DNA from: Escherichia virus TH58
Sequence record: MT446423.1
Direction: 5' to 3' (one strand)
Length of the DNA stretch: 64,000 nucleotides
Position 1 is the first letter of the stretch. Each line of letters starts with the position of its first letter. A model generated the notes under the pieces. It worked only from the letters and a program-made list of their open reading frames with translations, was not told the DNA's origin and did not search any database. The translations under genes and the position numbers were made by a program. Below, one piece after another: positions 26,081 through 60,027 of this stretch.

Positions 26081-26118
26081 AGACCTATCGAAACGAAATG
26101 AGTAAATTGGAGAATAAA

Positions 26119-27525: not shown

Positions 27526-27527
27526 TT

Positions 27528-27556: not shown

Positions 27557-27583
27557 AGACCTATCAACTACTGGAGGTAAAAC

Positions 27584-28112: not shown

Positions 28113-28174
28113 ACGCTTTACCCAAGGACGGGTTATAATGGTTTTGAGTTCCAATTCAATCTGAGGAAATAGTT

Positions 28175-29170
28175 ATGAGCATTACATCTGATGCGGTAAA
28201 ACATGAAATTAACGGTTTATGTGCTTCACAGATTAAAGTGTGGTTTAAAGACCATAATGATCGCAGAGCACTTAATTATGAGCAAATTGCTATCCAAGTT
28301 CATCAATTACTGACTAGTAAATTTGATTTTCATATGCCATCTGAAATCTATACTAATCTACCGCGAGCGCTTATTAAAGCGTGTAAAGGTTACGGAAAAT
28401 CAATGGCCGATGGAATCTTCAGCGCGCTGAATAAACTTAACGTTCTATCGATGATTAACTCTAACAACATCCTGCGTAATCTAGGACGTACTGATTTGTT
28501 CGGTCGTGAACAGTGTAAAATGCCTTTGAAATGGATTGTTGCTCATCTTAACGAGAACCAAACACGTTTTCTGGCCGTATCAGCACGCTTACAAATGGGC
28601 CTAGATCGTCAGATGAACTTTAAAACTCATCCACGTTATTCAGGTTCAACAGACTTTTATAAATGTGAGCTTCAAAAGGTTGCAGGTAAAACTGTCTTAG
28701 TAGTTCGTGTAACGTTTGAAGGACGACGTCAAGGATATTTTGACCTAATCGGCTCCGGTCTTAAACATTGTGGATTTATTGTCGAAGTTGATATCAAGCG
28801 AGACGGCATTGGATACCGTATTGGATATGTTTGTACTCTTAAAGAAGAGATTTCAGGACCAGCACCAGGACTAAAAGACGTTAGATATAAAGACGAGCTC
28901 GTTGAAGAAATAAAAGAAGTTGAATATGATATCAACCAAGAAGATGCTCTTAAAGACCTTATTGATGAACTAAACCAAGACGTTATTCCGGTTCAGAAAT
29001 TTGAATCAAAACATGCTGAGCAAATCAAATACTTTGAAGCTTTGATTAACGAACTTAATGTAACTATTCAACAGACTGACGACGAAATCTCACGATTAGC
29101 AGGCTTAAACGGTAAAAATAAAACAGAACGAGCTAATCTTATTCAAGTAGTAAAACTTCTTAAGGAATGA
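28175..29170 (+). CDS. Hypothetical protein
   Basis: 331 aa; GAGGAAA RBS. Confidence 0.55.
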   Translation: MSITSDAVKHEINGLCASQIKVWFKDHNDRRALNYEQIAIQVHQLLTSKFDFHMPSEIYTNLPRALIKACKGYGKSMADGIFSALNKLNVLSMINSNNILRNLGRTDLFGREQCKMPLKWIVAHLNENQTRFLAVSARLQMGLDRQMNFKTHPRYSGSTDFYKCELQKVAGKTVLVVRVTFEGRRQGYFDLIGSGLKHCGFIVEVDIKRDGIGYRIGYVCTLKEEISGPAPGLKDVRYKDELVEEIKEVEYDINQEDALKDLIDELNQDVIPVQKFESKHAEQIKYFEALINELNVTIQQTDDEISRLAGLNGKNKTERANLIQVVKLLKE

Positions 29171-29199
29171 TGTACAACCAAGGATGGTTGGAGTATAAT
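29171..29199 (+). promoter_or_regulatory. Early promoter cassette ACAACCAAGGATGGTTGGAGTATAAT (hairpin CCAACC/GGTTGG)
   Basis: Near-identical cassette repeated at 30163 and in variant form at 7690. Confidence 0.5.
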
Positions 29200-29225
29200 A
29201 AATTTTTCAACATGAGGAATATAAA

Positions 29226-30158
29226 ATGGCTTCTATTACACGTAGAGAACTTATCAAAGAATTTACCTCGAACGCATATACCCCAGGTCCTAATCCTATC
29301 CGTATGCCTGTAAAGACTCCTGAAGAGATTGAGGAAGTCTGTTCATATTATGGGATTACTTCTCGTAAGTTTACTCAATTTGAATGCGTTACTAACACAC
29401 CCGTTAAAGAGTTCATTAAAAATGGTGAGTTCAGCCGTTTATTAGCCAAACAGAAACTTCGTAATTTTTGTATCGGCGGCTACGGACAATATTTTGCTAA
29501 ACAGTTCAGAAATAACCTTAACAATCTGATGGCCATTGCTTCTCGTATTCGTCCTCAAGCAATTAACATGAAACATTTGAAATATACTTACGATAAGTTA
29601 GAAATCATGGTTATCAGTGAGAATGAGTTCACTCTTACGTATAAACCTAAGAATGATAACGTTGCTCGTGTATTCCACCAAGCGTTGGAAGTTTTAGGTG
29701 ATAATATCCACCAGATTAAAGCAATTTATTCTCGTGAGCTTAATATTATCGACCCTATCAAGAATAAGGGCCATATCGCTATCCAGGCTCGTGTATCTGT
29801 TGGTAAAAAGGTTCCTGCTCCATGGTGGCACAAAGACTCTGAATACTATCAAAATCTTAAAAAGGAAAATGCAACGTTCGAAGCGTCAATTATTGTTGCC
29901 CCAACTATCGGTAAGATTAATGCAGCTTCAGCACAACCTGTTATGTTTAATGGCACGCCGTCGACTAAACTGGAAATCTCTAATGGTCTTCTTCCTGCCG
30001 AAGATTACTATTATAATCAAATCAAAGCCACTGTGGACCAACTGTCTGTTGAACTTGACAAAGCACAAGCTAAACTTCGTGATGCTCAACAAGTAGTTAC
30101 CAAGCTCCAGTTGCAGTACTCTAAACTTTTTACCGCAATGAATGCGTTAAAATCATAA
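29226..30158 (+). CDS. Hypothetical protein with C-terminal coiled coil
   Basis: 310 aa; GAGGAA RBS. Confidence 0.55.
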   Translation: MASITRRELIKEFTSNAYTPGPNPIRMPVKTPEEIEEVCSYYGITSRKFTQFECVTNTPVKEFIKNGEFSRLLAKQKLRNFCIGGYGQYFAKQFRNNLNNLMAIASRIRPQAINMKHLKYTYDKLEIMVISENEFTLTYKPKNDNVARVFHQALEVLGDNIHQIKAIYSRELNIIDPIKNKGHIAIQARVSVGKKVPAPWWHKDSEYYQNLKKENATFEASIIVAPTIGKINAASAQPVMFNGTPSTKLEISNGLLPAEDYYYNQIKATVDQLSVELDKAQAKLRDAQQVVTKLQLQYSKLFTAMNALKS

Positions 30159-30162
30159 ATCA

Positions 30163-30192
30163 GTTTACAACCAAGGATGGTTGGAGTATAAT
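30163..30192 (+). promoter_or_regulatory. Early promoter cassette (GTTTAC...TATAAT), repeat of 29171 cassette
   Basis: GTTTACAACCAAGGATGGTTGGAGTATAAT. Confidence 0.55.
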
Positions 30193-30220
30193 CTTTCTAT
30201 CTTAACGAGAGGAAAATATT

Positions 30221-31171
30221 ATGACACGTTCACATTACATTGATTATTTTGCAGGTCTTATCGCTAACGTTCATGCCCAACGTGCTTCTGGTTCATTAGG
30301 ATTTGATGTTCCACACCGAGTTGTAGTAAGTGGTATTCTTCGCGATTTTTGTACATACACAGGCCAAGAAAATCATATCTGTAAAGATACTCAGAATGCG
30401 TATTCTCATTCATTAGGGACACTGCTTCAATGGTTCAAACGTTCTCGTTTATTATCTTCTACTGTAGCTCGCGATAACATTAAAAACTTTATGAAGCCTA
30501 GCTTTATTAAATCTGTGACATCTAAAACCGATTTGGTTGAATTCACTATTGTTAATGATGTTAAAAAGACTCATTTGGCTGATTGGTTATCTACCATTCC
30601 TGAAACTAAATTCGCTGATAAATTTGCTTGTGAATTCAATAACCAAGTGAATATGCTTTTTAAACATTCTCGTAAATTATTCACTGGCGGTGATGGCCGT
30701 ACAAATAAAGTTCATGTTAAAGATTGGGTTACTGCAGTATTCAAACCAACTGGTAATGGTAACGCATCATTGTCAATTGATATCCAGGTTCCTTATTACT
30801 ACTCACGTAATCTCGGTACCATGAAAGCCGAAGAAATTAATAAGCACAACAAAACCGTTCGTTCGCTGTCTTATAAACTTCGTATGATGTTACAGACTAT
30901 GGATGTTGTTGAAATGTTCAGCGAAACCGAAGATAACGGTTCAATGTTATTCAGTTCTCGTATTCAAATTAAGCTGAAGAACCCTAACGAGTATAAGCCT
31001 AAGCCTATTAAAGAGCCTAAAGCAGAAAAAGTTGATAACTTAAGAGAAGAACGCGAATATCTCAAATCTCGTCTGAAAGAAGTCGAAGCCCAGATTGCAG
31101 AACAAACTAAATCATTAAAAGCTCTGAATGCAAAAGCTGATGGTTTACGAAATGCCATTGAGGTGTTATAA
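30221..31171 (+). CDS. Hypothetical protein with C-terminal coiled coil
   Basis: 316 aa; GAGAGGAAA RBS. Confidence 0.55.
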   Translation: MTRSHYIDYFAGLIANVHAQRASGSLGFDVPHRVVVSGILRDFCTYTGQENHICKDTQNAYSHSLGTLLQWFKRSRLLSSTVARDNIKNFMKPSFIKSVTSKTDLVEFTIVNDVKKTHLADWLSTIPETKFADKFACEFNNQVNMLFKHSRKLFTGGDGRTNKVHVKDWVTAVFKPTGNGNASLSIDIQVPYYYSRNLGTMKAEEINKHNKTVRSLSYKLRMMLQTMDVVEMFSETEDNGSMLFSSRIQIKLKNPNEYKPKPIKEPKAEKVDNLREEREYLKSRLKEVEAQIAEQTKSLKALNAKADGLRNAIEVL

Positions 31172-49455: not shown

Positions 49456-52167
49456 ATGAAAGAATTTTACCTAACGGTTGAACAGATTGGTGATTCAATT
49501 TTTGAACGTTACATCGATTCTAATGGCTGTGAACGTACTCGTGAAGTAGAGTATAAGCCATCATTGTTTGCACATTGTCCTGAAAGTCAGGCCACGAAAT
49601 ATTTTGATATCTACGGTAAACCTTGTACTCGTAAACTGTTCGCTAACATGCGTGATGCCTCCCAATGGATTAAACGCATGGAAGATATCGGACTTGAAGC
49701 ACTTGGTATGGACGATTTCAAATTGGCGTATTTGTCTGACACTTATAACTATGAAATCAAATACGACCATACAAAAATTCGTGTGGCTAACTTCGACATC
49801 GAAGTAACATCTCCGGATGGGTTCCCTGAGCCGTCGCAAGCAAAACATCCGATTGATGCTATCACCCATTATGACTCAATTGACGACAGGTTCTACGTAT
49901 TTGATCTATTGAATTCTCCATATGGTAATGTGGAAGAATGGTCTATCGAAATTGCAGCTAAGCTTCAAGAACAAGGTGGTGATGAAGTTCCATCCGAAAT
50001 TATCGACAAAATCGTTTATATGCCGTTCGATAACGAAAAAGAATTGTTGATGGAATATCTCAACTTCTGGCAACAGAAAACTCCTGTCATTTTGACTGGA
50101 TGGAACGTTGAGTCATTTGATATTCCATATGTGTATAACCGAATCAAGAATATTTTTGGCGAATCTACTGCGAAACGTTTATCACCACATCGTAAAACTC
50201 GTGTTAAAGTTATCGAAAACATGTATGGTTCTCGTGAAATCATTACATTGTTCGGTATCTCTGTTCTTGATTACATTGACCTTTACAAAAAATTCTCTTT
50301 TACCAATCAACCGTCGTATTCTCTGGATTACATTTCAGAATTTGAATTGAACGTTGGTAAACTGAAATATGACGGCCCTATTTCTAAGCTTCGTGAAAGC
50401 AATCACCAACGATATATTTCTTATAACATTATCGACGTGTATCGTGTATTGCAAATTGATGCTAAGCGTCAGTTCATCAACTTGAGTTTGGACATGGGTT
50501 ATTATGCTAAGATACAGATTCAATCTGTGTTTAGTCCAATTAAAACATGGGATGCTATTATTTTTAATAGCCTTAAAGAGCAGAACAAGGTGATTCCACA
50601 AGGTCGTTCTCATCCGGTTCAACCTTATCCTGGCGCTTTTGTTAAGGAACCTATTCCAAATCGATACAAATATGTAATGAGTTTCGACCTTACATCTCTG
50701 TATCCAAGTATTATTCGCCAAGTGAATATTAGCCCAGAAACAATAGCAGGAACGTTTAAAGTAGCTCCATTGCATGATTATATTAACGCTGTTGCTGAAC
50801 GTCCTTCTGATGTGTACAGTTGTTCTCCTAACGGCATGATGTATTATAAAGACCGTGATGGTGTAGTTCCAACTGAAATCACTAAAGTCTTTAATCAACG
50901 TAAAGAACATAAAGGTTACATGCTTGCAGCTCAACGTAATGGTGAAATAATTAAAGAGGCATTGCATAATCCTAATCTTTCTGTCGACGAACCATTAGAT
51001 GTTGATTATCGTTTCGACTTCAGTGATGAGATTAAAGAAAAGATTAAAAAGTTGTCTGCTAAATCTCTTAATGAAATGTTGTTTAGAGCTCAACGTACTG
51101 AAGTTGCAGGTATGACTGCCCAAATTAACCGTAAATTGCTTATCAACTCACTTTATGGTGCACTTGGCAACGTTTGGTTCCGTTATTATGATTTGCGTAA
51201 TGCTACCGCAATCACAACATTTGGTCAAATGGCTTTACAGTGGATTGAACGTAAAGTTAATGAATATCTGAATGAAGTTTGTGGTACAGAAGGTGAAGCT
51301 TTCGTTCTATATGGTGATACAGACTCTATTTACGTATCTGCTGATAAAATTATCGATAAGGTTGGTGAATCTAAATTCCGTGATACCAACCATTGGGTAG
51401 ACTTCTTAGATAAGTTTGCACGTGAACGTATGGAACCAGCTATTGATAGAGGTTTCCGTGAAATGTGTGAATACATGAACAATAAACAACACTTAATGTT
51501 CATGGACCGAGAAGCTATCGCTGGTCCTCCGCTCGGTTCTAAAGGTATTGGTGGATTCTGGACTGGTAAGAAACGTTATGCATTAAACGTGTGGGACATG
51601 GAAGGTACTCGTTACGCTGAGCCTAAACTCAAAATAATGGGTCTAGAGACTCAGAAATCTTCGACTCCTAAAGCAGTACAGAAAGCTCTTAAAGAATGTA
51701 TTCGTCGTATGCTTCAAGAAGGTGAAGAATCATTACAAGAATATTTTAAAGAGTTTGAAAAAGAATTCCGTCAATTGAATTATATTAGCATCGCGTCGGT
51801 ATCTTCTGCGAATAACATTGCTAAATATGAAGTAGGTGGATTCCCGGGTCCTAAATGCCCGTTCCATATTCGTGGAATTCTGACGTATAACCGGGCTATC
51901 AAAGGTAATATCGATGCACCGCAAGTTGTAGAAGGTGAAAAAGTATATGTTCTGCCTTTACGTGAAGGAAACCCATTCGGTGATAAATGTATCGCATGGC
52001 CTTCTGGTACTGAAATCACAGATTTAATTAAAGACGACGTACTTCATTGGATGGACTACACTGTTCTCCTTGAGAAGACATTTATTAAACCACTTGAAGG
52101 ATTCACATCAGCAGCGAAACTCGATTACGAGAAGAAAGCATCTCTGTTCGATATGTTCGATTTTTGA
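49456..52167 (+). CDS. 43: DNA polymerase gp43 (family B)
   Basis: 903 aa; exonuclease motifs FDIEV and YNIIDV, polymerase motifs DLTSLYPSII, KILINSLYGALG, YGDTDS; N-terminus RB69-like from memory. Confidence 0.95.
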   Translation: MKEFYLTVEQIGDSIFERYIDSNGCERTREVEYKPSLFAHCPESQATKYFDIYGKPCTRKLFANMRDASQWIKRMEDIGLEALGMDDFKLAYLSDTYNYEIKYDHTKIRVANFDIEVTSPDGFPEPSQAKHPIDAITHYDSIDDRFYVFDLLNSPYGNVEEWSIEIAAKLQEQGGDEVPSEIIDKIVYMPFDNEKELLMEYLNFWQQKTPVILTGWNVESFDIPYVYNRIKNIFGESTAKRLSPHRKTRVKVIENMYGSREIITLFGISVLDYIDLYKKFSFTNQPSYSLDYISEFELNVGKLKYDGPISKLRESNHQRYISYNIIDVYRVLQIDAKRQFINLSLDMGYYAKIQIQSVFSPIKTWDAIIFNSLKEQNKVIPQGRSHPVQPYPGAFVKEPIPNRYKYVMSFDLTSLYPSIIRQVNISPETIAGTFKVAPLHDYINAVAERPSDVYSCSPNGMMYYKDRDGVVPTEITKVFNQRKEHKGYMLAAQRNGEIIKEALHNPNLSVDEPLDVDYRFDFSDEIKEKIKKLSAKSLNEMLFRAQRTEVAGMTAQINRKLLINSLYGALGNVWFRYYDLRNATAITTFGQMALQWIERKVNEYLNEVCGTEGEAFVLYGDTDSIYVSADKIIDKVGESKFRDTNHWVDFLDKFARERMEPAIDRGFREMCEYMNNKQHLMFMDREAIAGPPLGSKGIGGFWTGKKRYALNVWDMEGTRYAEPKLKIMGLETQKSSTPKAVQKALKECIRRMLQEGEESLQEYFKEFEKEFRQLNYISIASVSSANNIAKYEVGGFPGPKCPFHIRGILTYNRAIKGNIDAPQVVEGEKVYVLPLREGNPFGDKCIAWPSGTEITDLIKDDVLHWMDYTVLLEKTFIKPLEGFTSAAKLDYEKKASLFDMFDF

Positions 52168-52207: not shown

Positions 52208-52843
52208 ATGAAAACTACTCCTATTACTATCGCTATTGACGCAATCATAAAACAAGCTTCTTCTTTGGCCGCTATGGCCAAAGTAATTAGTCAAAACCCT
52301 GCTCGTTATAATGCTATTCTAGAAACTCTTCGACGCCCAGGACTTAGTAATTATGAAAGTCGTGTAATTATTACAGGTGTTGGTAAGAACGCTAATATCG
52401 CAACTAAAGCTTCTGAGACTTTTGCTTCATTAGGTATTCCTAGCATGTATTTGAACACCGGGCATTATTCTCACGGCGATGCAGGATTCATTGCGCCTAA
52501 TGATGTGTTGATTCATATTAGTCGTTCTGGTAAAACTGAAGAAATGATAGGCGTGGCTAAGCATCTTAAAATGATTCGTCCGAACGTCAAACAGATTCTG
52601 TTGCATTGTAACCCAGACATTCCACAAGAAAATGAAGCCCTTTTTGATTACTCTTTCTGTACAGGCATCGCAGTAGAGGTTGATGAGAATTCTCTGGCTC
52701 CGACTATGTCCACTACATTGTTGTTAGCGCTTATCGATACGTTTGCTATCAACCTTTCGTCTGAACGTGGATTTACCTCTAATGACTTCCTTAAGTTCCA
52801 CCCTGGTGGTGCACTAGGTGCCATGTTACGAGGCGAACAATGA
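52208..52843 (+). CDS. SIS-domain sugar-phosphate isomerase (KdsD/GutQ-like, probable arabinose-5-phosphate isomerase)
   Basis: ITGVGKNANIATKASETFASLGIPSMYLNTGHYSHGDAGF...HISRSGKTEE...HPGGALG follows the KdsD SIS pattern; 211 aa, no CBS domains. Confidence 0.65.
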   Translation: MKTTPITIAIDAIIKQASSLAAMAKVISQNPARYNAILETLRRPGLSNYESRVIITGVGKNANIATKASETFASLGIPSMYLNTGHYSHGDAGFIAPNDVLIHISRSGKTEEMIGVAKHLKMIRPNVKQILLHCNPDIPQENEALFDYSFCTGIAVEVDENSLAPTMSTTLLLALIDTFAINLSSERGFTSNDFLKFHPGGALGAMLRGEQ

Positions 52844-52983
52844 AAGCAATAACAATAGGACTTTTACTATTGATGCTTGTCATGACTATCTACTGGAGCT
52901 TAACGGCTCCAGTAATGATTCCAACACTTGTAATCGGATGGATTATGATTGGACTACAAGCAAAGTATGAATGCTTTAACTAG
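52840..52983 (+). CDS. Small membrane peptide (47 aa)
   Basis: ATGA overlap with SIS gene stop; GAGG RBS; two hydrophobic segments. Confidence 0.35.
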   Translation: MKAITIGLLLLMLVMTIYWSLTAPVMIPTLVIGWIMIGLQAKYECFN

Positions 52984-52996
52984 AATAGTGTACAAT
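52972..52996 (+). promoter_or_regulatory. Candidate MotA-dependent middle promoter
   Basis: TGCTTTA at 52972-52978, 12-nt spacer, TACAAT 52991-52996; upstream of ATG 53025. Confidence 0.45.
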
Positions 52997-53024
52997 ACTC
53001 CTACTTACCAATGAGGACCACAAC

Positions 53025-54710
53025 ATGAAAAAAGCTGTTATTCTTGGTGCTGGACTGGCAACTCGTTTGTATCCAATAACGCATCATATTCCTAAGGTGC
53101 TTGTTAACTATAAACAAGACACTATTCTGAGCAATTTGTATACAATTTATTCTGACCTTGGCGCAGATGAAATTATTGTAGTAGTTCATTCAAAATTTGC
53201 TGAAACCGTTCGAGCTTATTGTGAGCAAGAAGGGTTCAATGTGACTATTCGTACAGTTGATGAAGCATATGGTTCTGCTTATGCTCTTGCTAAATTGCAC
53301 AAAGATTTAGACGGTCATAATGTAATTGTTAACTGGTGTGATATTATTCCCGATTTTGGTTCATGGTCTTGGAATGTTAACGCAATCTATGTTAAGGGTG
53401 ACGAATGTCGATATAATTTCGACGGTGAAAATATCACTAACGTAGGTTCAACAGGTGGTAATGTTGTAGGAATTTATCAGTTCAAAGACTGGGAATTCTA
53501 TATGGGTTCTACTGATGAGGAAATTCATGAATACTGCAAAGGACGTGATTTCGTAGAATTCCTTTACGGCAGCGCATTCAATAAATCAGAGCTTATGAAT
53601 CTAATTGATTTAGGTGATATGCCTAAACTTGAAAAGGCTCATGAAGTTCGTGAACTTAATCGTAGTTTTAATGCGGTTGAAATTGGTGAAGAAACTGTAA
53701 CTAAATTCGCATTAACCGAACAGGGCCGATCTCTTCAGAAAGATGAGATTTCATGGTATCTTAAAGTGAAATCAGATTCAGTTCCTCAGTTAGTTTCTGT
53801 TAATGAAAATAACTTTGAAATGGAACGCATTAAAGGTAAGCCGGCATTTGAATATATTAAATCCAAATCGAGTCTTGCTCGTCCACAAATTGTTGATGCA
53901 ATTTTAGATGCACTGAAATTCAGCACAGACACTTATTTTGTAAGTCCTGAAACTGTTCGTCGTGATTTCACTAAAGAATTCTATACTAAAGTCATCGATC
54001 GTTGTGAAAGTATTCAACCATTGATTGATTCATTTGGTAAAATCACACATGTGAACTACACTAAGATTGGACGTCTGAAGCCAATGTTGAAACAAGCTTT
54101 AGAACACCTTATTCGTTATCATAACCGTTCTCAGGGACAGTACTCTGTTATTCATGGTGACCCGAACTTCAGTAATACTATGATTACTGATAATGGTGAA
54201 GTAAAGTTTATCGACCCTCGTGGATATTTTGGTGAAACCAAGATTTACGGGCCAAAATTGTATGACGAAGCTAAAGTGCTTTACGCTGTTTCAGGTTATG
54301 ATGAATTCAACGCCAATCCGACCTGGGGACAGTTTACTATTGATGAAATAACCTGTAATGTGACTATTAACATCAATCCATTAGTTTACAAATATGGAAA
54401 GATGAGTTCGTTTAACGTGTATCATCATTTGGCAGTGGCAATTATCTGGATTGCATTAGGTGGTTATTTCAAGAATAATCCACTTAAAGCGGTAGCCGCA
54501 TATTATAAAGGTATGGAACTTCTGACTAAGCAATTACGTAACATGGGCCGTGTACTTCAGGACGGCACTATTAGTTATGATGTAGCAGAACCTGTAACGG
54601 CTACTCTGATTACAAAAAATCCTGGTAAATGGGTACTAACTGATAAAGAAACTGGTGTTTCTTATCGTCCAATCGGTGGCGATAACACTCATCAATGGGA
54701 ACGAATCTAA
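53025..54710 (+). CDS. Bifunctional sugar-1-phosphate nucleotidyltransferase / sugar kinase
   Basis: N-terminal MKKAVILGAGLATRLYPIT (NDP-sugar pyrophosphorylase G-loop); C-terminal HGDPNFSN and FIDPRG (APH/choline-kinase-like motifs); 561 aa. Confidence 0.65.
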   Translation: MKKAVILGAGLATRLYPITHHIPKVLVNYKQDTILSNLYTIYSDLGADEIIVVVHSKFAETVRAYCEQEGFNVTIRTVDEAYGSAYALAKLHKDLDGHNVIVNWCDIIPDFGSWSWNVNAIYVKGDECRYNFDGENITNVGSTGGNVVGIYQFKDWEFYMGSTDEEIHEYCKGRDFVEFLYGSAFNKSELMNLIDLGDMPKLEKAHEVRELNRSFNAVEIGEETVTKFALTEQGRSLQKDEISWYLKVKSDSVPQLVSVNENNFEMERIKGKPAFEYIKSKSSLARPQIVDAILDALKFSTDTYFVSPETVRRDFTKEFYTKVIDRCESIQPLIDSFGKITHVNYTKIGRLKPMLKQALEHLIRYHNRSQGQYSVIHGDPNFSNTMITDNGEVKFIDPRGYFGETKIYGPKLYDEAKVLYAVSGYDEFNANPTWGQFTIDEITCNVTININPLVYKYGKMSSFNVYHHLAVAIIWIALGGYFKNNPLKAVAAYYKGMELLTKQLRNMGRVLQDGTISYDVAEPVTATLITKNPGKWVLTDKETGVSYRPIGGDNTHQWERI

Positions 54711-55096
54711 TGCACCGTGTAAAAAACATGCTTAATCTTTGTTTTGACGTCGATGATTGTATAACAGAGTGGAATAACAATCGTGATTACGTGAACTTCA
54801 AACCGGACGTCGAAATGGTGTCTGCCATTAATGCCCTGTATGATGCAGGGCATACCATAACGCTTTACACTGCTCGCGGTATGAAGTCAGTCGGTCCTGG
54901 TCGTATAGCAATTGACATTCTCCCAAGTCTGATTCAGAACTTGGCAAACATTGGATTGAAGTACCATAATTTGCTAACACATAAACCAGTATATGATTGG
55001 ATTATCGACGACAAAGCTATGCGTCCTGACGAATTCAAAGCTCTTATGAATAAAGGCGAATTCGAAACATTTAAATCATATAAACCGAATCTATAA
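54710..55096 (+). CDS. Small HAD-superfamily phosphatase
   Basis: Motif I LCFDVDDCIT, motif II TLYTARG, motif IV WIIDDK; 128 aa. Confidence 0.55.
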   Translation: MHRVKNMLNLCFDVDDCITEWNNNRDYVNFKPDVEMVSAINALYDAGHTITLYTARGMKSVGPGRIAIDILPSLIQNLANIGLKYHNLLTHKPVYDWIIDDKAMRPDEFKALMNKGEFETFKSYKPNL

Positions 55097-55150
55097 TAAT
55101 TTAAGTAAGACCTGCAAAAACCATCGCAACAATTAACGCGAGATGCAAAA

Positions 55151-56311
55151 ATGAATACCTTTAAAATCGGAACGAATTTTGATTTAGCTCTTCTTGATAA
55201 AATCGTAGAGCTCAATAAAACTTATCCTAATAGCTTGATAAACGAAGTATACGGCTCTACAAGAGAAATGGCTTTTGTAGCAGCCAGACCTGATTTTAGG
55301 CTTCCTGACGTTGACAAAAAGATGTTAGAAGATTACGTTAAACGTTGTAACGAATTAGGTATTTGCTTTAACTATACACTCAACACGATAAATCCTGGTT
55401 CAAAAAGAGAACTAGTTGAGTGGAAGAAGAAAGCTATTCAGGATTATGTTCAGTATCTTTGGTCAATAGGTGTATGGCGTATTACTATCGCTAACCCTGT
55501 TGTTATGGAAATTGTTCGTGAAGTCAATAAAGACATTGAGATTGAAGTTTCAACAATTCTACATGTCGATGCTGTAACTCAAATCAAATACTTGCATGAC
55601 CAATATAATATCAAAAAGGTCTGCTGTGGAATTCACAAGAACCGTTCAGTTTCTTTCCTGAAGCGTGCAGCAGAGTTTTGCAATAAGAACAATATAATAT
55701 TTGAAGTTCTTGTAAATGAGTTCTGTTCTAATGCTGGTAAAGGGTATACAACACATTGTAGTTATCGTGACTCTTGCTATATTTTCCATAGCACCGATGT
55801 TACAGTAGATGATGCCAAATCCTTAAATGGATATCCAATGCAACACTGTATTAAAGCTCGTGATACAGATCCATTTAACTGGTTGAGAACTCGTTTTGTT
55901 CGTCCTCAAGATTTGAAACTTTATAATGATATTGGTATCACTCAATTCAAAGTTTCAGGACGTACAGGTAGCACAGACTACATTTTGAAAGTTCTTGAAG
56001 CATACGCTTCTGAAAAGTTTGAAGGTAATTTGTTAGAACTGTGGAAGCCTTTAGAGACTATTTTCACTCTTGAAAACGAAACTGAGTTTTCACATACAGT
56101 AAATATTGAAACCTCTTTGTTAGATGGCTTTTTAGAAAAAAGGTGGTTCAAACATCCAGATTTCGATTGTGCTAATGAAATCTGCGGGACGACGTGTACA
56201 TATTGTGAAAGATATTATAAACGTCAGTTATCTAAAAATGGGTTATCAGAAAACTCTATATCTATTATTGATATAACTAACTCTGACGACGCTTTGAGGT
56301 ACCCAGAATGA
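55151..56311 (+). CDS. Uncharacterised protein with C-terminal 4-Cys cluster (possible metal or Fe-S site); weak U32-family resemblance
   Basis: C-terminal CANEICGTTCTYC (C-x4-C-x3-C-x2-C); GITQFKVSGR resembles a U32-family K-I-E-G-R segment; the U32 signature itself is not matched; 386 aa. Confidence 0.35.
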   Translation: MNTFKIGTNFDLALLDKIVELNKTYPNSLINEVYGSTREMAFVAARPDFRLPDVDKKMLEDYVKRCNELGICFNYTLNTINPGSKRELVEWKKKAIQDYVQYLWSIGVWRITIANPVVMEIVREVNKDIEIEVSTILHVDAVTQIKYLHDQYNIKKVCCGIHKNRSVSFLKRAAEFCNKNNIIFEVLVNEFCSNAGKGYTTHCSYRDSCYIFHSTDVTVDDAKSLNGYPMQHCIKARDTDPFNWLRTRFVRPQDLKLYNDIGITQFKVSGRTGSTDYILKVLEAYASEKFEGNLLELWKPLETIFTLENETEFSHTVNIETSLLDGFLEKRWFKHPDFDCANEICGTTCTYCERYYKRQLSKNGLSENSISIIDITNSDDALRYPE

Positions 56312-56457
56312 TTTCTAGAAAAACTTTTAACCACCAACTTAATGAAGAGATTTTGACTACGAAAATTAACAGCAACGAACAAATTCTTAAAAAGGCCCTT
56401 ATTGGCCTGTTTGAAACTAAAGCGGCTAAAGTGATTAAAGAACCTGTTCAATTGTAA
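56308..56457 (+). CDS. Small ORF (49 aa) ending at an in-frame TAA followed by 30 more open codons
   Basis: ATGA overlap with upstream gene; frame stays open after the TAA at 56455-56457 until 56546. Confidence 0.3.
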   Translation: MISRKTFNHQLNEEILTTKINSNEQILKKALIGLFETKAAKVIKEPVQL

Positions 56458-56589
56458 TACTACGCTGATGCATTTCTTCATAGTGTTCTTGGAAATATCG
56501 ATGCTGAAGCTTTACGTTATATCAACACCGCTAAGAAATTCAAATAAGCTTTATGAATTGAGTATATAATAAATTGTATTGAGGTAAAC

Positions 56590-57306
56590 ATGGGAAAACA
56601 TAACACAATGAAATATATTAAAGCCGCAGATTTTCAATCCGCATTTAAAGCTGTCAATCGTGAAATTTTAGAAAACCCGGAATTCGTTACTGATTCTCGT
56701 ATTGGACGTTGTAATGAAATTGGGTCTATGACAGTAGTTGTTGACACTCCATCATCATTCAAAATGACCGACCCACGTATTAACCGCATCTCTTATGAAT
56801 ATGCTGAAGATTTCTGGAAGTTTATGATTTCTGGCGGTACCGACGCAGAAGAAGCATTTAAGGCATATCCTAATGTCGCTAAATTTATTTCTAAACCAAA
56901 ATCAGATGCTTTGCCTGCGAACTTCAACACTTTCTATGGTCCACGAATTGCGGCCCAGTTACCAGCTCTTCTCAAAGAACTTAAAGAGAAACCTAATTCA
57001 CGAAGAGTTGTGTTCCAAATTCTAGAAAGTTCAGATCAGGCTTTGCTTGATTCGGACGAAACACTTGAATATCCATGTACTGACTCAGTGACTTATTATA
57101 TTCGTGATGGTAAGCTTTATACCCACTGTCATATGCGTTCTCAGAACTGTGCTGTTGTTATGCAGTTGGATTTTTATCTCCAAGGAAAATTACTTCATTA
57201 TATCGCTAACGAATGTGGTGTAGAAGTTGGTGATTATACTCATACCATGGTAAGTGCCCATGTGTTTGAACGTGATTTTGATTATGTTAAAGGATTCCTT
57301 GACTAA
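56590..57306 (+). CDS. Thymidylate-synthase-fold pyrimidine hydroxymethylase (divergent gp42 analog)
   Basis: Catalytic-Cys region EYPCTDSVTYYIRDGKLYTHCHMRSQN parallels TS and dCMP hydroxymethylase; downstream Asp (MQLDF) at the specificity position; 238 aa. Confidence 0.6.
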   Translation: MGKHNTMKYIKAADFQSAFKAVNREILENPEFVTDSRIGRCNEIGSMTVVVDTPSSFKMTDPRINRISYEYAEDFWKFMISGGTDAEEAFKAYPNVAKFISKPKSDALPANFNTFYGPRIAAQLPALLKELKEKPNSRRVVFQILESSDQALLDSDETLEYPCTDSVTYYIRDGKLYTHCHMRSQNCAVVMQLDFYLQGKLLHYIANECGVEVGDYTHTMVSAHVFERDFDYVKGFLD

Positions 57307-58205
57307 TGGCTATTTTCCGCGTACCTATCTTGAGTATGCGGTCTTATGAAACTGGTCAGTATGCTATCCTTAAGGATGGTAACTTCCAACTTCATTTGCA
57401 CCGTGCTAATCCAGGTGATGTGATTACATATCCACGTAATGCATCTGATATTAAAGAATGTGAACGTCTTTTCCCAGAATTTAAGTTTGTTCCATTATGG
57501 TATAAAGATAACGCGTATAACACTCGTAAATATTTCTGGTCTGAAAATGAATTTGTGGTTGATTCATTAATTGCTTATTATGATTGTGATTTTCTAATCA
57601 CAGATATCACTGGATATGACGGCGCTTTTGATGTGGAATTCAATTTCAATATCACTGCAGACCCTAATAAACCGCGTTTTTATATTGACGAATTCTTAAA
57701 AACCGACATGTTGTCGGTTAATCGTTCACTTCAAACTACTGTGTTGAATGAACGTCAAAAGGAAGTGCTGGTTAACGCTGGTGCGGATGGTAATAAGATT
57801 ATCGTAACGCAGAAAGTTATACGTCCTTCCATCATGCAGCGTCTTGTAGGTGATTTGGCTCCTATTCATCTAGATGGTATTTTTCATCCATTTCGAATTA
57901 GTGACCCGTGCTATCGTTTTGAACAAGTGGTTGAATGTGCAATTCAATTAGGTCAACCGCTTTATATAACCGATCCAAATAATAGCTTCGACAGAAATAA
58001 GTATCCTGAAGAAGCGCTGATTCGAATTTTTAAACCAACTAAAACTGAGTACTATCAAATTCTTAAAGGTCGGCCGAAGATTCAATATTTCGAAAATCCT
58101 GAAGAAGTATTCCATCCAGGTCTTGGCGAGTTCATCTACTTTAACGCTTTAATTTCTTCGCCGTATAATATACCTAAATATGAAGATGTCGTAATCGAGG
58201 AATAA
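57306..58205 (+). CDS. Uncharacterised protein (candidate DNA sugar transferase by context)
   Basis: 299 aa; no motif recognised; sits between the hydroxymethylase and a kinase where T4 has beta-gt. Confidence 0.4.
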   Translation: MAIFRVPILSMRSYETGQYAILKDGNFQLHLHRANPGDVITYPRNASDIKECERLFPEFKFVPLWYKDNAYNTRKYFWSENEFVVDSLIAYYDCDFLITDITGYDGAFDVEFNFNITADPNKPRFYIDEFLKTDMLSVNRSLQTTVLNERQKEVLVNAGADGNKIIVTQKVIRPSIMQRLVGDLAPIHLDGIFHPFRISDPCYRFEQVVECAIQLGQPLYITDPNNSFDRNKYPEEALIRIFKPTKTEYYQILKGRPKIQYFENPEEVFHPGLGEFIYFNALISSPYNIPKYEDVVIEE

Positions 58206-58206
58206 A

Positions 58207-58755
58207 ATGGCTAAAATTATTTTAGTAGATGGCCCGGATAATGCTGGTAAAACAACTTTCATTAATGACATAATGGAAATTAGTGAAAGATATGTAAAGA
58301 TTGATTTCCCTAAACGAACAGTTGACGGACGTTTCGATGTTAAGTCTCGAAATGAAGTTGGTTGTTTCGAAACGATGTTGAATTATTTAGATCCTACTAA
58401 GATTTATCTGTTAGACCGTGGATATATTAGTAACTGGGTTTATGGACGTATTCGTCAAGATGCTGACTCGGTTCTTGACGTTTATGAACAGGATTATGTT
58501 CGTCTTTGCCAAAACCACGATGTGTTCACAATTATTTTAACACGTAACGAAATGACTGAAAGTTTTGAAGACGACCTTATTACTTTGTCTTCATTCGGTT
58601 TTAATACAGTAATTTCATATTTTGAAGAGTTTGCAATCCATAACGAAATCCAAACGTATCAATTACTTAATCATGATGGTGCTAACAAAGTTATAGGATT
58701 TAATGCAAGCGAACGTAATAATTTGATTACAGAAATTATCAAATGGGCTCGTTAA
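58207..58755 (+). CDS. P-loop nucleoside/nucleotide kinase-like protein
   Basis: Walker A ILVDGPDNAGKTT and LLDRGYIS (dNK/TMPK-like DR(Y/S) motif); 182 aa. Confidence 0.5.
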   Translation: MAKIILVDGPDNAGKTTFINDIMEISERYVKIDFPKRTVDGRFDVKSRNEVGCFETMLNYLDPTKIYLLDRGYISNWVYGRIRQDADSVLDVYEQDYVRLCQNHDVFTIILTRNEMTESFEDDLITLSSFGFNTVISYFEEFAIHNEIQTYQLLNHDGANKVIGFNASERNNLITEIIKWAR

Positions 58756-58854: not shown

Positions 58855-60027
58855 ATGTCTGATTTAAAATCTCGTCTGATTAAAGCTTCTACTTCTAAAA
58901 TGACTGCAGACTTGACTAAGTCTAAGTTGTTTAATAATCGTGATGAAGTCCCTACTCGTATTCCGATGTTGAATATTGCATTAGGTGGTGCACTGAATGC
59001 TGGGTTGCAATCAGGCTTAACTATTTTTGCTGCTCCTTCTAAACACTTTAAAACGTTGTTTGGACTGACCATGGTTGCAGCATATATGAAGAAATATAAA
59101 GATGCAATTTGTTTGTTCTATGATTCAGAATTTGGTGCTTCAGAATCTTATTTTCGTTCAATGGGTGTTGATTTAGACCGTGTAGTTCATACTCCTATTC
59201 AATCTGTCGAACAACTTAAAGTTGATATGACTAATCAGCTTGACGCGATTGAACGCGGTGATAAAGTTATTATCTTTATCGATTCAATCGGTAATACTGC
59301 ATCTAAGAAAGAAACTGAAGATGCATTGAACGAGAAAGTCGTAGGTGATATGTCTCGTGCTAAGGCACTTAAATCTCTTTTCCGCATTGTGACTCCTTAT
59401 CTGACTATTAAAGATATTCCGTGTGTTGCAATTAACCATACCGCAATGGAAATCGGTGGATTGTATCCTAAAGAGATTATGGGTGGTGGTACAGGTATTC
59501 TTTACTCTGCTAACACTGTATTCTTTATCTCTAAACGTCAGGTTAAAGAAGGTACAGAATTGACGGGTTATGACTTCACGTTGAAAGCAGAAAAATCTCG
59601 CACCGTTAAAGAAAAATCTACTTTCCCAATCACGGTTAATTTTGATGGCGGTATTGACCCATTCAGTGGCTTGTTAGAAATGGCAACTGAAATTGGTTTT
59701 GTAGTTAAGCCTAAAGCTGGTTGGTATGCTCGTGAATTCCTTGACGAAGAAACAGGCGAAATGATTCGTGAAGAGAAATCGTGGCGTGCTAAAGCTACTG
59801 ATTGTGTAGAATTCTGGGGACCATTGTTTAAACACAAACCTTTCCGAGATGCAATTGAAACTAAATATAAACTAGGTGCTATCTCTTCTATTAAAGAAGT
59901 TGATGATGCTGTTAACGACCTTATTAATTGCAAAGCAACAACTAAAGTTCCGGTTAAAACTTCTGATGCTCCGTCTGCAGCAGATATTGAAAACGACCTT
60001 GACGAAATGGAAGATTTCGATGAATAA
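58855..60027 (+). CDS. uvsX: RecA-like recombinase UvsX
   Basis: Walker A region and RecA core; 390 aa. Confidence 0.9.
   Translation: MSDLKSRLIKASTSKMTADLTKSKLFNNRDEVPTRIPMLNIALGGALNAGLQSGLTIFAAPSKHFKTLFGLTMVAAYMKKYKDAICLFYDSEFGASESYFRSMGVDLDRVVHTPIQSVEQLKVDMTNQLDAIERGDKVIIFIDSIGNTASKKETEDALNEKVVGDMSRAKALKSLFRIVTPYLTIKDIPCVAINHTAMEIGGLYPKEIMGGGTGILYSANTVFFISKRQVKEGTELTGYDFTLKAEKSRTVKEKSTFPITVNFDGGIDPFSGLLEMATEIGFVVKPKAGWYAREFLDEETGEMIREEKSWRAKATDCVEFWGPLFKHKPFRDAIETKYKLGAISSIKEVDDAVNDLINCKATTKVPVKTSDAPSAADIENDLDEMEDFDE

What the first reader, a model, noticed from the sequence alone, without database searches (positions are those of the whole stretch)
52208..58755. Sugar-nucleotide (probably NDP-D-arabinose) synthesis and DNA hypermodification module in place of T4 imm/42/beta-gt
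Seen in sequence: between gene 43 and uvsX lie, in one orientation behind a MotA-type promoter, a KdsD-like SIS isomerase (52208-52843), a fused NDP-sugar pyrophosphorylase + APH-like kinase (53025-54710), a small HAD phosphatase (54710-55096), a 4-Cys protein (55151-56311), a TS-fold hydroxymethylase (56590-57306), an unassigned 299-aa protein (57306-58205) and a P-loop kinase (58207-58755). Established: T4 glucosylates hmC with host UDP-glucose via alpha-gt and beta-gt; KdsD-type SIS enzymes interconvert ribulose-5-P and D-arabinose-5-P; arabinosyl-hmC has been reported in RB69-type phages. Inference: the phage builds its own pentose donor (Ru5P -> Ara5P -> Ara -> Ara-1-P -> NDP-Ara) and attaches it to hydroxymethyl-pyrimidine in DNA, with the 299-aa or 386-aa protein as candidate transferase. 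The enzyme assignments are motif-level only.
Basis: partly seen in the sequence, partly recalled or inferred. Interest (0 to 1): 0.85.

Follow-up and report, generated by a model that had tools for sequence, protein, structure and literature searches.

The report
Known phage arabinosyl-hydroxycytosine DNA modification cluster
This is the already described gene cluster with which RB69-type T4-like phages replace cytosine in their DNA by arabinose-decorated 5-hydroxycytosine. One member, a U32-family iron-sulfur protein, still has no tested role and looks like an oxygen-independent base hydroxylase.

Summary
All seven ORFs exist at the stated coordinates, co-directional between gene 43 and uvsX. 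The stretch is 97.4% identical to RB69 ORF055c-ORF045c, and its proteins are 96-100% identical to those of phage HY126.

The cluster is published: Thomas 2018; Lee et al. NAR 2026; He et al. 2026 and Mahler et al. 2025, both cited there but unreadable here.

- the D-arabinose nucleotide-sugar pathway;

- The acceptor base is 5-hydroxycytosine, not hydroxymethylcytosine.
- The TS-fold enzyme is an O2/flavin-dependent dCMP hydroxylase. It carries the diagnostic D169N change and is 236/238 identical to PDB 9iqc.
- The sugar route runs Ara5P to Ara-1,5-P2 to Ara-1-P to UDP-Araf.
- The 386-aa protein is a Peptidase_U32 member, not a transferase.

New lead: this U32 protein keeps the Glu/Cys/Cys triad that is essential in RlhA and TrhP. 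In 51 related phage records a chorismate mutase gene sits beside it. In 37 uncultivated phage loci it accompanies the same glycosyltransferase and sugar genes, sometimes with DAHP synthase-chorismate mutase fusions, and never with a hydroxylase-type TS. It is probably a prephenate-dependent, O2-independent hydroxylase.

The parts
52208..52843 (+). D-arabinose-5-phosphate isomerase (single SIS domain, no CBS pair); RB69 ORF055c homologue. Converts Ru5P to Ara5P.
   Evidence: Pfam SIS 1e-10. NCBIfam KpsF/GutQ 2e-32 and KdsD 7e-31. PHROG 'arabinose 5-phosphate isomerase' 4e-116. PDB 3etn 2.6e-25 and E. coli KdsD 2xhz 3.5e-19. 99.1% identical to the HY126 protein.
52840..52983 (+). 47-aa hydrophobic small ORF (RB69 ORF054c homologue); function unknown.
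   Evidence: ORF. phrog_3610 6.8e-27. Annotated in RB69, JS98, LC53 and HY126 at the same position.
52972..52996 (+). MotA-box-like middle-promoter consensus match (TGCTTTA-N12-TACAAT), about 30 nt upstream of the 561-aa gene.
   Evidence: Pattern search: 14 matches in the window against 3.2 expected. This is a consensus match only; function was not tested.
53025..54710 (+). Bifunctional enzyme. The N-terminal domain is a sugar-1-P nucleotidylyltransferase (UDP-Araf pyrophosphorylase). The C-terminal domain is an APH/choline-kinase-like kinase (Ara5P 1-kinase). Homologue of RB69 ORF053_052c and HY126 AfhE.
   Evidence: Pfam NTP_transferase 8.5e-10 at residues 3-99, and weak APH/fructosamine-kinase hits at residues 344-409. 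NCBIfam sugar-1-P nucleotidylyltransferases. PDB 1jyk 2e-5. HGDPNFSN catalytic loop at residue 377, and 96.1% identity to the HY126 protein. Activities as reported for AfhE, relayed in PMC13326640. A single intact ORF here, as Thomas 2018 showed by resequencing RB69.
54710..55096 (+). HAD-type phosphatase (HY126 AfhF / RB69 gp51 homologue). Converts Ara-1,5-P2 to Ara-1-P. An alternative start lies at 54695.
   Evidence: PDB 9iqw 6.3e-87 and 1xpj 4.8e-10. NCBIfam EcbF-BcbF capsule biosynthesis phosphatase 4e-13. DVD motif at residue 13, and 99.2% identity to HY126. Activity relayed in PMC13326640.
55151..56311 (+). Peptidase_U32-family Fe-S protein (RB69 gp50 homologue); role not established. 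Proposed here: a prephenate-dependent, O2-independent pyrimidine C5 hydroxylase.
   Evidence: Pfam PF01136 6.3e-11. Weak UbiU hit. Invariant C158, C192, C203, C209, C233, C340, C345, C349 and C352, with C177 98% conserved, in 121 family members. Best E. coli paralogue by hhalign is RlhA (probability 88.7%, E 2.6e-6), aligning E190/C203/C209 with E161/C169/C176. Chorismate mutase or DAHP synthase neighbours in relatives.
56308..56457 (+). Truncated homologue of RB69 ORF049c: 49 aa here against 79 aa in RB69, cut by TAA at codon 50 (56455-56457). It sits where other genera carry a chorismate mutase gene.
   Evidence: Alignment with RB69 shows a single G-to-T change that creates the stop. No phage record is identical over an 81-nt query spanning this stop codon. 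HY126 carries a different disruption. No Pfam CM_2 hit and no BLASTP similarity to the phage chorismate mutases.
56590..57306 (+). TS-fold 5-hydroxy-dCMP synthase (RB69 gp48 homologue). Flavin- and O2-dependent hydroxylation of dCMP at C5.
   Evidence: Pfam Thymidylat_synt 2.4e-15. PDB 9iqc/9ir2/9iqu 1.8e-162, 236/238 identical. The alignment shows C146 kept, L143E, N177D and D169N, while T4 gp42 has D169. Activity, 18O2 labelling and FMN binding are reported in PMC13326640.
57306..58205 (+). GT-B fold glycosyltransferase; base-proximal (first) arabinosyltransferase; homologue of RB69 ORF047_046c.
58207..58755 (+). Thymidylate-kinase-like P-loop nucleotide kinase (RB69 gp45 homologue); substrate unknown.
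   Evidence: PHROG 'thymidylate kinase' 5e-45. P-loop GPDNAGKT at residue 9. A DRG motif is visible in the translation. 100% identical to the HY126 protein. PMC13326640 reports thymidylate-kinase structural matches.

Best explanation
The region is the Mosigvirus (RB69/HY126-type) gene cluster that makes arabinosylated 5-hydroxycytosine DNA.

Base branch:
- The TS-fold enzyme (56590-57306) hydroxylates dCMP at C5 using O2 and a flavin. This is shown for the RB69 and HY126 orthologues, which are 99% identical.
- The product is phosphorylated and incorporated in place of dCTP. The dNMP kinase step is shown for RB69 gp159, which lies outside the window. The role of the Tmk-like kinase at 58207-58755 is inferred and unresolved.

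Sugar branch:
- The SIS isomerase turns ribulose-5-P into D-arabinose-5-P (inferred from family).
- The kinase domain of the 561-aa protein makes arabinose-1,5-bisphosphate.
- The HAD phosphatase removes the 5-phosphate.
- The nucleotidyltransferase domain makes UDP-arabinofuranose.
- The last three steps were reported for HY126 AfhE and AfhF by He et al., as relayed in PMC13326640.

Transfer: the 299-aa GT-B enzyme puts the first, alpha-linked arabinose on the 5-hydroxyl. This is inferred from fold and synteny; no activity has been shown. A second transferase, the RB69 ORF003c homologue, lies outside the window.

The U32 protein is not required for any of these aerobic steps. My reading is that it provides a second, O2-independent hydroxylation route (see the section on the most novel reading).
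For: - The 6.5-kb stretch is 97.4-97.9% identical to RB69 and about 150 Mosigvirus genomes, with the same gene order as RB69 ORF055c-ORF045c.
- Its proteins are 96-100% identical to those of HY126.
- Crystal structures of near-identical TS-like and HAD proteins exist: 9iqc and 9iqw. An HY126 glycosyltransferase structure, 9iqz, also exists.
- The hydroxylase signature D169N, N177D, L143E and C146 is present. PMC13326640 uses D169N as the diagnostic residue.
- Family-level assignments hold for the isomerase, nucleotidyltransferase/kinase and phosphatase.
- The 299-aa protein has a GT-B fold.
- Chemistry from the literature: RB69 DNA contains beta-D-Araf-(1-3)-alpha-D-Araf-5-hydroxy-dC; 18O2 is incorporated by gp48; FMN is bound (PMC13326640). 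A related Mosigvirus, NP, carries mono- and di-arabinosylated dC (PMC13390438).
Against: - Nothing was measured on this particular phage.
- The first arabinosyl transfer has not been reconstituted. PMC13326640 reports no activity of single transferases on 5hoC-DNA, and leaves open whether it acts on the nucleotide or on DNA.
- The roles of the Tmk-like kinase, the U32 protein and the two small ORFs are unassigned.
- He et al. 2026 and Mahler et al. 2025 could not be read here. The AfhE and AfhF activities are therefore cited second-hand.
Confidence: 0.95

Rival explanations
1. A T4-like hydroxymethylase makes hmC. The sugar donor is made via free arabinose (Ara5P to Ara to Ara-1-P to NDP-Ara). 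Arabinose is attached to the hydroxymethyl group, giving ara-hmC as proposed in 2018.
For: Thomas et al. 2018 (PMC6024577) named the modification ara-hmC. The TS-fold protein has the dCMP-specifying N177D and L143E residues that T4 gp42 also has in kind. Table 1 of PMC13326640 still lists the free-arabinose route as the putative function.
Against: Position 169 is Asn, against Asp in T4 gp42 and ThyA. NMR and MS show an ether link directly to C5, and 18O2 labels the base (PMC13326640). PMC13390438 calls the hmC assignment erroneous. The text of PMC13326640 adopts the bisphosphate route shown for HY126 AfhE and AfhF.
Confidence: 0.03
2. The U32 protein has nothing to do with base hydroxylation. 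It would be a sugar or heterocycle reductase (the label in PMC13326640 Table 1), a flavin-recycling partner of the TS-like hydroxylase, a UDP-arabinose pathway enzyme (BASEL annotation), or a true peptidase.
For: PMC13326640 Table 1 labels RB69 gp50 'sugar or heterocycle reductase'. GenBank annotations read 'peptidase', 'collagenase-like protease' or 'putative enzyme involved in UDP-arabinose biosynthesis'. E. coli Dhakaviruses such as JS98 run the system without it. Direct hydroxylase activity has not been demonstrated in vitro for any U32 protein (PMC10990095).
Against: The residues essential in RlhA and TrhP are invariant here. A chorismate mutase, whose only product is prephenate, sits beside it in 51 phage records, and DAHP synthase-chorismate mutase fusions sit beside it in uncultivated phages. 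In 37 non-T4-like loci it accompanies the glycosyltransferase and sugar genes with no hydroxylase-type TS to partner with.
Confidence: 0.4
3. The sugar genes are a host-takeover 'moron' that alters host capsule, LPS or Kdo metabolism rather than DNA.
For: The isomerase and phosphatase are most similar to bacterial capsule-locus proteins: KpsF/GutQ and the EcbF-BcbF capsule biosynthesis phosphatase. PDB 9iqw is deposited as 'capsule biosynthesis protein'. PHROGs files them under 'moron, auxiliary metabolic gene'.
Against: Arabinose is found on the phage DNA itself (PMC6024577, PMC13326640). The genes are embedded between the replication genes 43 and uvsX, next to the base hydroxylase and a DNA-type GT-B transferase. 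The same set travels with 5hoC synthases in Acinetobacter and Serratia phages.
Confidence: 0.02

Closest known systems
RB69 gp45-gp55 / HY126 Afh cluster: arabinosyl-5-hydroxycytosine biosynthesis (Thomas 2018 PMC6024577; Lee et al. 2026 PMC13326640; He et al. 2026; Mahler et al. 2025)
   Same: Same genes in the same order between gene 43 and uvsX. Nucleotide identity is 97.4% to RB69 and protein identity is 96-100% to HY126. Same D169N hydroxylase signature.
   Different: The window has intact 561-aa and 299-aa ORFs where the RB69 reference record has sequencing-error splits. The ORF049c homologue carries a private nonsense codon.
T4 hmC glucosylation (gp42 dCMP hydroxymethylase, alpha-gt, beta-gt, host UDP-glucose)
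   Different: Hydroxylation (O2/flavin) replaces hydroxymethylation (folate), with Asn169 instead of Asp. The sugar is arabinofuranose, made by phage enzymes rather than taken as host UDP-glucose. The link is an ether to C5. There is no sequence similarity to alpha-gt or beta-gt.
Acinetobacter phage DLP3/Maestro and Rhizobium phage RL38J1 glycosyl-5hoC systems (PMC13326640)
   Same: TS-like 5hodCMP synthase, Tmk-like kinase and GT-B transferase, with or without the isomerase, bifunctional enzyme and HAD.
   Different: Maestro's cluster and the published DLP3 and RL38J1 gene lists show no U32 gene and no chorismate mutase gene. No Acinetobacter or Rhizobium record is among the ten commonest organism names of the 221 U32 hits. 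They carry extra transferases (tri-arabinose) or use hexoses.
U32-family prephenate-dependent hydroxylation factors RlhA (ho5C2501), TrhP (ho5U34) and UbiU/UbiV (PMC5727448, PMC6599085, 10.1101/587956, PMC10990095)
   Same: PF01136 domain. The essential Glu and two Cys are conserved. There are further invariant Cys and a C-terminal Cys cluster, as in RlhA. There is a genetic link to prephenate supply. RlhA performs the same chemistry: C5 hydroxylation of cytosine.
   Different: BLASTP shows no significant pairwise similarity to the four E. coli paralogues. Cys spacing is C-X10-C-X5-C-X23-C rather than CX6CX15CX3/4C. There are no RNA-binding or DUF3656 domains. The presumed substrate is a deoxynucleotide or DNA. 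No activity data exist.
TrhO/TrhP and UbiIHF/UbiUV dual aerobic/anaerobic hydroxylation pathways
   Same: An O2-dependent hydroxylase and a U32 protein would be encoded for the same product. The phyletic split matches: both, one, or the other (PMC6599085; here).
   Different: Here both are encoded side by side in a virus. Redundancy is inferred, not shown.

Membership tests
Phage arabinosyl-5-hydroxycytosine cluster (RB69 gp45-55 / HY126 Afh) | TS-fold 5-hydroxy-dCMP synthase with catalytic Cys146, N177D and the diagnostic D169N | tested here: met
   Alignment with E. coli ThyA and T4 gp42. 236/238 identity to PDB 9iqc.
Phage arabinosyl-5-hydroxycytosine cluster (RB69 gp45-55 / HY126 Afh) | Arabinose-5-P isomerase, bifunctional kinase/nucleotidyltransferase (AfhE type) and HAD phosphatase (AfhF type) | tested here: met
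   Identity to the HY126 proteins is 96.1-99.2%.
Phage arabinosyl-5-hydroxycytosine cluster (RB69 gp45-55 / HY126 Afh) | GT-B fold DNA arabinosyltransferase next to the hydroxylase | tested here: met
Phage arabinosyl-5-hydroxycytosine cluster (RB69 gp45-55 / HY126 Afh) | Position between gene 43 and uvsX, collinear with RB69 | tested here: met
Phage arabinosyl-5-hydroxycytosine cluster (RB69 gp45-55 / HY126 Afh) | Virion DNA actually contains arabinosyl-5-hydroxy-dC | not testable with these tools
   Known for RB69, NP and HY126 from the literature (PMC13326640, PMC13390438). Not measured for this phage.
Phage arabinosyl-5-hydroxycytosine cluster (RB69 gp45-55 / HY126 Afh) | Second arabinosyltransferase (ORF003c type), dCTPase and gp1-type dNMP kinase | not tested
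   By collinearity with RB69 these genes should map outside the 64-kb window. This is inferred from the coordinates.
T4-type hmC glucosylation system | Folate-dependent dCMP hydroxymethylase (Asp at ThyA position 169) | tested here: not met
   Asn at position 169; T4 gp42 has Asp.
T4-type hmC glucosylation system | Homologue of alpha-gt or beta-gt | tested here: not met
U32 prephenate-dependent hydroxylases (RlhA/TrhP/UbiU-UbiV) | Peptidase_U32 (PF01136) domain | tested here: met
   42.4 bits against a gathering score of 22.4.
U32 prephenate-dependent hydroxylases (RlhA/TrhP/UbiU-UbiV) | Glu and two Cys of the U32 motif shown to be essential (RlhA E161/C169/C176; TrhP E162/C170/C177) | tested here: met
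   hhalign aligns E190, C203 and C209 with them. All three are invariant in 121 homologues. Essentiality is from PMC6599085.
U32 prephenate-dependent hydroxylases (RlhA/TrhP/UbiU-UbiV) | Four-Cys ligand set for a [4Fe-4S] cluster (CX6CX15CX3/4C or a variant) | tested here: inconclusive
   Four invariant Cys lie in the region (192, 203, 209, 233), but with different spacing. A second invariant cluster is C340-X4-C345-X3-C349-X2-C352. Motif from 10.1101/587956.
U32 prephenate-dependent hydroxylases (RlhA/TrhP/UbiU-UbiV) | Dependence on prephenate | tested here: inconclusive
   Only gene-neighbourhood evidence in relatives: chorismate mutase (CM_2, 40.9 and 44.6 bits) beside it in 51 phage records, and DAHP synthase-CM fusions in uncultivated phages. 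In this window the neighbouring ORF has no CM similarity and is truncated.
U32 prephenate-dependent hydroxylases (RlhA/TrhP/UbiU-UbiV) | O2-independent hydroxylation activity | not testable with these tools
   Needs anaerobic genetics or biochemistry.

The most novel reading that the evidence does not exclude
The 386-aa U32 Fe-S protein is a prephenate-dependent, O2-independent pyrimidine C5 hydroxylase acting on dCMP, dCTP or DNA. It would give these phages a second route to 5-hydroxycytosine when the O2/flavin-dependent TS-like hydroxylase cannot work, for example in the anoxic gut.

Supporting pattern:
- In other T4-like genera it is paired with a phage chorismate mutase that supplies prephenate.
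- In many uncultivated phages it appears to be the only hydroxylase feeding a homologous glycosyltransferase and arabinose-nucleotide module.

This would be a viral parallel to the TrhO/TrhP and UbiIHF/UbiUV aerobic/anaerobic pairs, and the first U32 hydroxylase implicated in DNA modification. No paper I could read makes this link. PMC13326640 labels the protein 'sugar or heterocycle reductase' and never mentions U32. He et al. 2026 and Mahler et al. 2025 could not be checked.
Probability: 0.5. Interest if true: 0.7.

Novelty: already known. Interest (0 to 1): 0.3.

Why it matters
The finding as handed over does not add to knowledge. The cluster, the true base (5-hydroxycytosine), the hydroxylase mechanism and the UDP-arabinofuranose route were published in 2018-2026. 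Near-identical proteins have crystal structures.

What matters is the residue that the published accounts I could read leave unexplained. These phages destroy dCTP and must replace every cytosine, yet their known hydroxylase needs O2 while their hosts live largely without it.

A U32/prephenate route would explain how the modification is made anaerobically. It would extend the still poorly understood U32 hydroxylase family from RNA and quinones to DNA precursors. It would also predict a large set of uncultivated phages with hydroxylated and glycosylated DNA made without any thymidylate-synthase homologue. That bears on restriction and CRISPR evasion, on nanopore and enzymatic handling of phage DNA, and on phage therapy candidates such as Mosigvirus and the Klebsiella, Serratia and Yersinia T4-like phages.

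Tried and rejected
- A single-sequence AlphaFold2 run on the 299-aa protein gave an unusable model (pLDDT 36.8). It was repeated with an alignment.
- Sequence and profile searches of the 299-aa family against PDB found nothing. The U32 protein also has no PDB sequence match.
- I tested whether RB69 ORF049c, and its truncated copy here, is a degenerate chorismate mutase. A MAFFT alignment looked suggestive. Pfam finds no CM_2 domain, and BLASTP gives E of 6.9 and 0.16. Homology is rejected; only the position is shared.
- I tested a strict rule that facultatively anaerobic hosts imply U32 present. It fails, because E. coli Dhakavirus JS98 has the system without U32 and without the isomerase. U32 is therefore accessory, not obligatory.
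- BLASTP of the U32 protein against E. coli RlhA, TrhP, UbiU and UbiV was not significant. Only profile-to-sequence comparison recovered the relationship.
- The sigma-70 promoter and terminator scans were at or below shuffle expectation and are not used.
- He et al. 2026 and Mahler et al. 2025 are not held in the library. One literature search on the term 'Aat' was wasted on unrelated hits.
- I considered the C345-X3-C349-X2-C352 spacing as a radical-SAM motif. A fourth invariant Cys (C340) and the C-terminal position argue against it, so no claim is made.

Full report
**Observation.** They lie between gene 43 (49456-52167) and uvsX (58855-60027), followed by genes 40 and 41. Two small ORFs were not mentioned: 52840-52983 (47 aa, hydrophobic) and 56308-56457 (49 aa). 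Base composition is uniform with the flanks, so nothing suggests recent import. A MotA-box-like site (TGCTTTA-N12-TACAAT) lies at 52972-52996. That is upstream of the 561-aa gene and downstream of the isomerase gene. The pattern is enriched in the window, with 14 matches against 3.2 expected. Generic sigma-70 and terminator scans are uninformative.

**Identity of the locus.** The 6.5-kb stretch is 97.4% identical to RB69 positions 24047-30598 and 97-98% identical to about 150 Mosigvirus genomes. It is collinear with RB69 ORF055c to ORF045c. RB69's reference record splits the 561-aa gene (ORF053c/052c) and the 299-aa gene (ORF047c/046c). Both splits are documented sequencing errors (PMC6024577; PMC13326640), and the window carries the intact forms. 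Each protein is 96-100% identical to its counterpart in phage HY126.

**The proteins.**
- *Isomerase, 211 aa.* A single SIS domain of the KpsF/GutQ/KdsD type. Its best solved relatives are arabinose-5-P isomerases 3etn and 2xhz.
- *Bifunctional enzyme, 561 aa.* An N-terminal sugar-1-P nucleotidylyltransferase domain and a C-terminal APH-like kinase with the HGDPNFSN catalytic loop.
- *Phosphatase, 128 aa.* A HAD phosphatase with a DVD motif. It matches PDB 9iqw at E 6e-87 and is related to capsule-locus phosphatases.
- *TS-fold protein, 238 aa.* It is 236/238 identical to PDB 9iqc/9ir2.
- *Kinase, 182 aa.* A thymidylate-kinase-like P-loop kinase.
- *386-aa protein.* A Peptidase_U32 family member.

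**What is already known.**
- Thomas et al. 2018 found arabinose on RB69 DNA and pointed to this module.
- Lee et al. 2026 (PMC13326640) showed by NMR and MS that the base is 5-hydroxycytosine carrying one or two D-arabinofuranoses through an ether bond. They showed that gp48, the TS homologue, makes 5-hydroxy-dCMP from dCMP with oxygen from 18O2 and binds FMN. They also showed that Asn at ThyA position 169 marks such enzymes.
- Citing He et al. 2026 on HY126, they report the sugar route. AfhE phosphorylates Ara5P to Ara-1,5-P2 and later forms UDP-arabinose, and AfhF removes the 5-phosphate.
- PMC13390438 confirms the chemistry in another Mosigvirus and calls the older hmC assignment erroneous.

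I tested the signature directly. In an alignment with E. coli ThyA and T4 gp42, the window protein keeps Cys146 and has L143E, N177D and D169N, whereas T4 gp42 has Asp169.

**Verdict on the interpretation.**
- The positional comparison with T4 holds (T4 order 43-imm.1-imm-42-beta-gt-segA-uvsX), although gene 42 is retained as a homologue with changed chemistry rather than replaced.
- The finding is an already known system.

**The unexplained member: the U32 protein.** PMC13326640 lists RB69 gp50 only as 'sugar or heterocycle reductase' and never mentions U32. Its discussion nevertheless cites the RlhA and ho5U papers as unrelated pyrimidine hydroxylation pathways. U32 proteins RlhA, TrhP and UbiU/UbiV are the known factors for O2-independent, prephenate-dependent hydroxylation. 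RlhA is required for C5 hydroxylation of a cytosine (PMC5727448, PMC6599085, 10.1101/587956, PMC10990095).

Four lines of evidence connect the phage protein to that chemistry.

1. *Conserved residues.* In 121 homologues, C158, C192, C203, C209 and C233 and a C-terminal C340-X4-C345-X3-C349-X2-C352 cluster are invariant, as are E190, R206, H213 and others; C177 is 98% conserved. The family profile aligns best with RlhA among the four E. coli paralogues (probability 88.7%, E 2.6e-6). That alignment places E190, C203 and C209 on RlhA E161, C169 and C176. This is the triad shown to be essential in RlhA and TrhP.

2. *Chorismate mutase as neighbour.* In Kanagawavirus Entb_45 and Winklervirus LC53, the small gene between the U32 and TS genes is a true chorismate mutase (CM_2, 40.9 and 44.6 bits against a cut-off of 27). 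tblastn finds this gene in 51 phage records. In every record where features under the match are informatively annotated, it lies beside the TS-like gene and/or the U32 gene. The records cover phages of Klebsiella, Serratia, Yersinia, Enterobacter, Edwardsiella, Erwinia, Pectobacterium, Providencia, Morganella, Kosakonia, Escherichia (EcS1) and Shewanella. The only product of chorismate mutase is prephenate.

3. *Distribution among cultured phages.* The U32 gene occurs in 221 phage records, all at least 80% identical. Their hosts are Enterobacterales and Shewanella. The TS-like hydroxylase occurs in 373 records, including 57 Acinetobacter and 20 Rhizobium phages. Acinetobacter phage Maestro's cluster contains no U32 gene, and the published DLP3 and RL38J1 gene lists show none either. 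E. coli Dhakavirus JS98 also lacks it, so it is accessory rather than obligatory.

4. *Uncultivated phages.* I searched 47 IMG/VR loci and 5 metagenome loci, each with up to 10 kb of flank, for relatives of each cluster protein.
   - The 15 T4-like loci all have TS, U32, transferase, kinase, bifunctional enzyme and HAD. Eleven also have chorismate mutase.
   - Of the 37 non-T4-like loci (U32 at 40-58% identity, some redundant), 25 carry a homologue of the 299-aa transferase on the same strand.
   - Seventeen carry the bifunctional enzyme and 10 carry the isomerase.
   - Seven carry a DAHP synthase or a DAHP synthase-chorismate mutase fusion in the flanks, next to U32 in every case checked by coordinates. 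Three fusions were confirmed by Pfam; the DAHP synthase assignment comes.
   - Only one (L035) has any TS homologue. That one has the canonical ThyA residues L143, D169 and N177, so it is an ordinary thymidylate synthase.
   - Example gene orders: L007 is transferase, isomerase, bifunctional enzyme, U32, DAHP synthase, epimerase. L018 is Tmk-like kinase, transferase, U32, TAGT-like transferase, dUTPase/DCD and, further on, UDP-galactopyranose mutase. Other members sit beside dCMP deaminase, Tmk, UDG, NT5C and dNK genes.

**Reading of the U32 evidence.** The simplest reading is that U32 supplies the hydroxyl acceptor for the transferase by a prephenate-dependent, O2-independent reaction. It would act alone in those uncultivated phages and as a second route beside the O2-dependent enzyme in enterobacterial T4-like phages.

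This is inference from sequence, neighbourhood and phyletic pattern. No activity is shown. Direct catalysis has not been demonstrated for any U32 protein. TS genes further than 10 kb away would have been missed. Two key papers could not be read. I put it at about 0.5.

**State of the neighbouring ORF in this phage.** In Mosigviruses the chorismate mutase position is occupied by ORF049c, which has no detectable similarity to chorismate mutase. It is 79 aa in RB69. In this window a G-to-T change creates TAA at codon 50, and no database phage is identical over an 81-nt query spanning that site. In HY126 it is frameshifted after residue 40. The ORF is evidently dispensable. E. coli makes prephenate itself through PheA and TyrA.

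**Open points inside the known system.**
- The substrate of the Tmk-like kinase is unknown, although gp1-type dNMP kinase already phosphorylates 5hodCMP.
- It is unknown whether the first arabinose is added to a nucleotide or to DNA; PMC13326640 leaves this open.
- The 47-aa membrane ORF has no assigned function.

**Scores.** As a finding, this is already known, so interest is low. I set it at 0.3 rather than lower only because of the U32 lead.

Noticed in passing
window 56455-56457 (ORF 56308-56457): A G-to-T change relative to RB69 creates a TAA stop at codon 50 of the ORF049c homologue (79 aa in RB69). No phage record is identical over an 81-nt query spanning this site (132 records match it, 130 over at least 80% of it). 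HY126 has an independent frameshift after residue 40. The ORF seems to be decaying in Mosigviruses.
   Followed up: yes
L002 6158-6397, L003 5660-6004 and 49 further phage records: A bona fide monofunctional chorismate mutase (Pfam CM_2 above cut-off) is encoded between the U32 and TS-like genes in T4-like phages of at least ten host genera, including Shewanella phage Thanatos. I found no paper discussing it.
   Followed up: yes
L007, L018, L033, L035-L065 (IMG/VR and metagenome contigs): Uncultivated phages, with contigs up to 466 kb, carry a U32 homologue beside homologues of the 299-aa transferase, the bifunctional enzyme, the isomerase, a Tmk-like kinase, TAGT-like transferases, UDP-galactopyranose mutase and DAHP synthase-chorismate mutase fusions. 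No hydroxylase-type TS lies within 10 kb. This predicts glycosylated hydroxypyrimidine DNA made without a TS homologue.
   Followed up: partly
window 56168-56209 (residues 340-352 of the U32 protein): An invariant C-terminal cluster C-X4-C-X3-C-X-Y-C. The last three Cys have radical-SAM-like spacing with an aromatic residue before the last Cys. RlhA also has an essential C-terminal Cys cluster. Significance unknown.
   Followed up: partly
window, whole: MotA-box-like sites (TGCTTYA, 10-14 nt, TANNNT) occur 14 times against 3.2 expected, 9 of them on the + strand. Examples are 42626, 45460 and 52972. This fits T4-type middle promoters in this phage.
   Followed up: no
window 54695-54710: The HAD gene has an in-frame ATG 15 nt upstream of the annotated start, overlapping the end of the 561-aa gene. 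The crystallised homologue (9iqw, 134 residues) extends 6 residues beyond the 128-aa form, but that could be tag sequence.
   Followed up: no
L008 (phage JS98) 3476-8589: E. coli Dhakavirus JS98 keeps imm and has the bifunctional enzyme, HAD, kinase, TS-like hydroxylase and transferase. It lacks both the SIS isomerase and the U32 gene, and an unrelated 166-aa ORF sits where the isomerase would be. Presumably host KdsD/GutQ supply Ara5P.
   Followed up: partly
L005 13227-14360: One metagenomic contig carries a second, very divergent U32-like gene next to a radical SAM/SPASM gene, a nucleoside 2-deoxyribosyltransferase-like gene, NT5C and dNK. On the same contig is a dockerin-bearing glycoside hydrolase, which hints at an anaerobic Firmicutes setting.
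   Followed up: no
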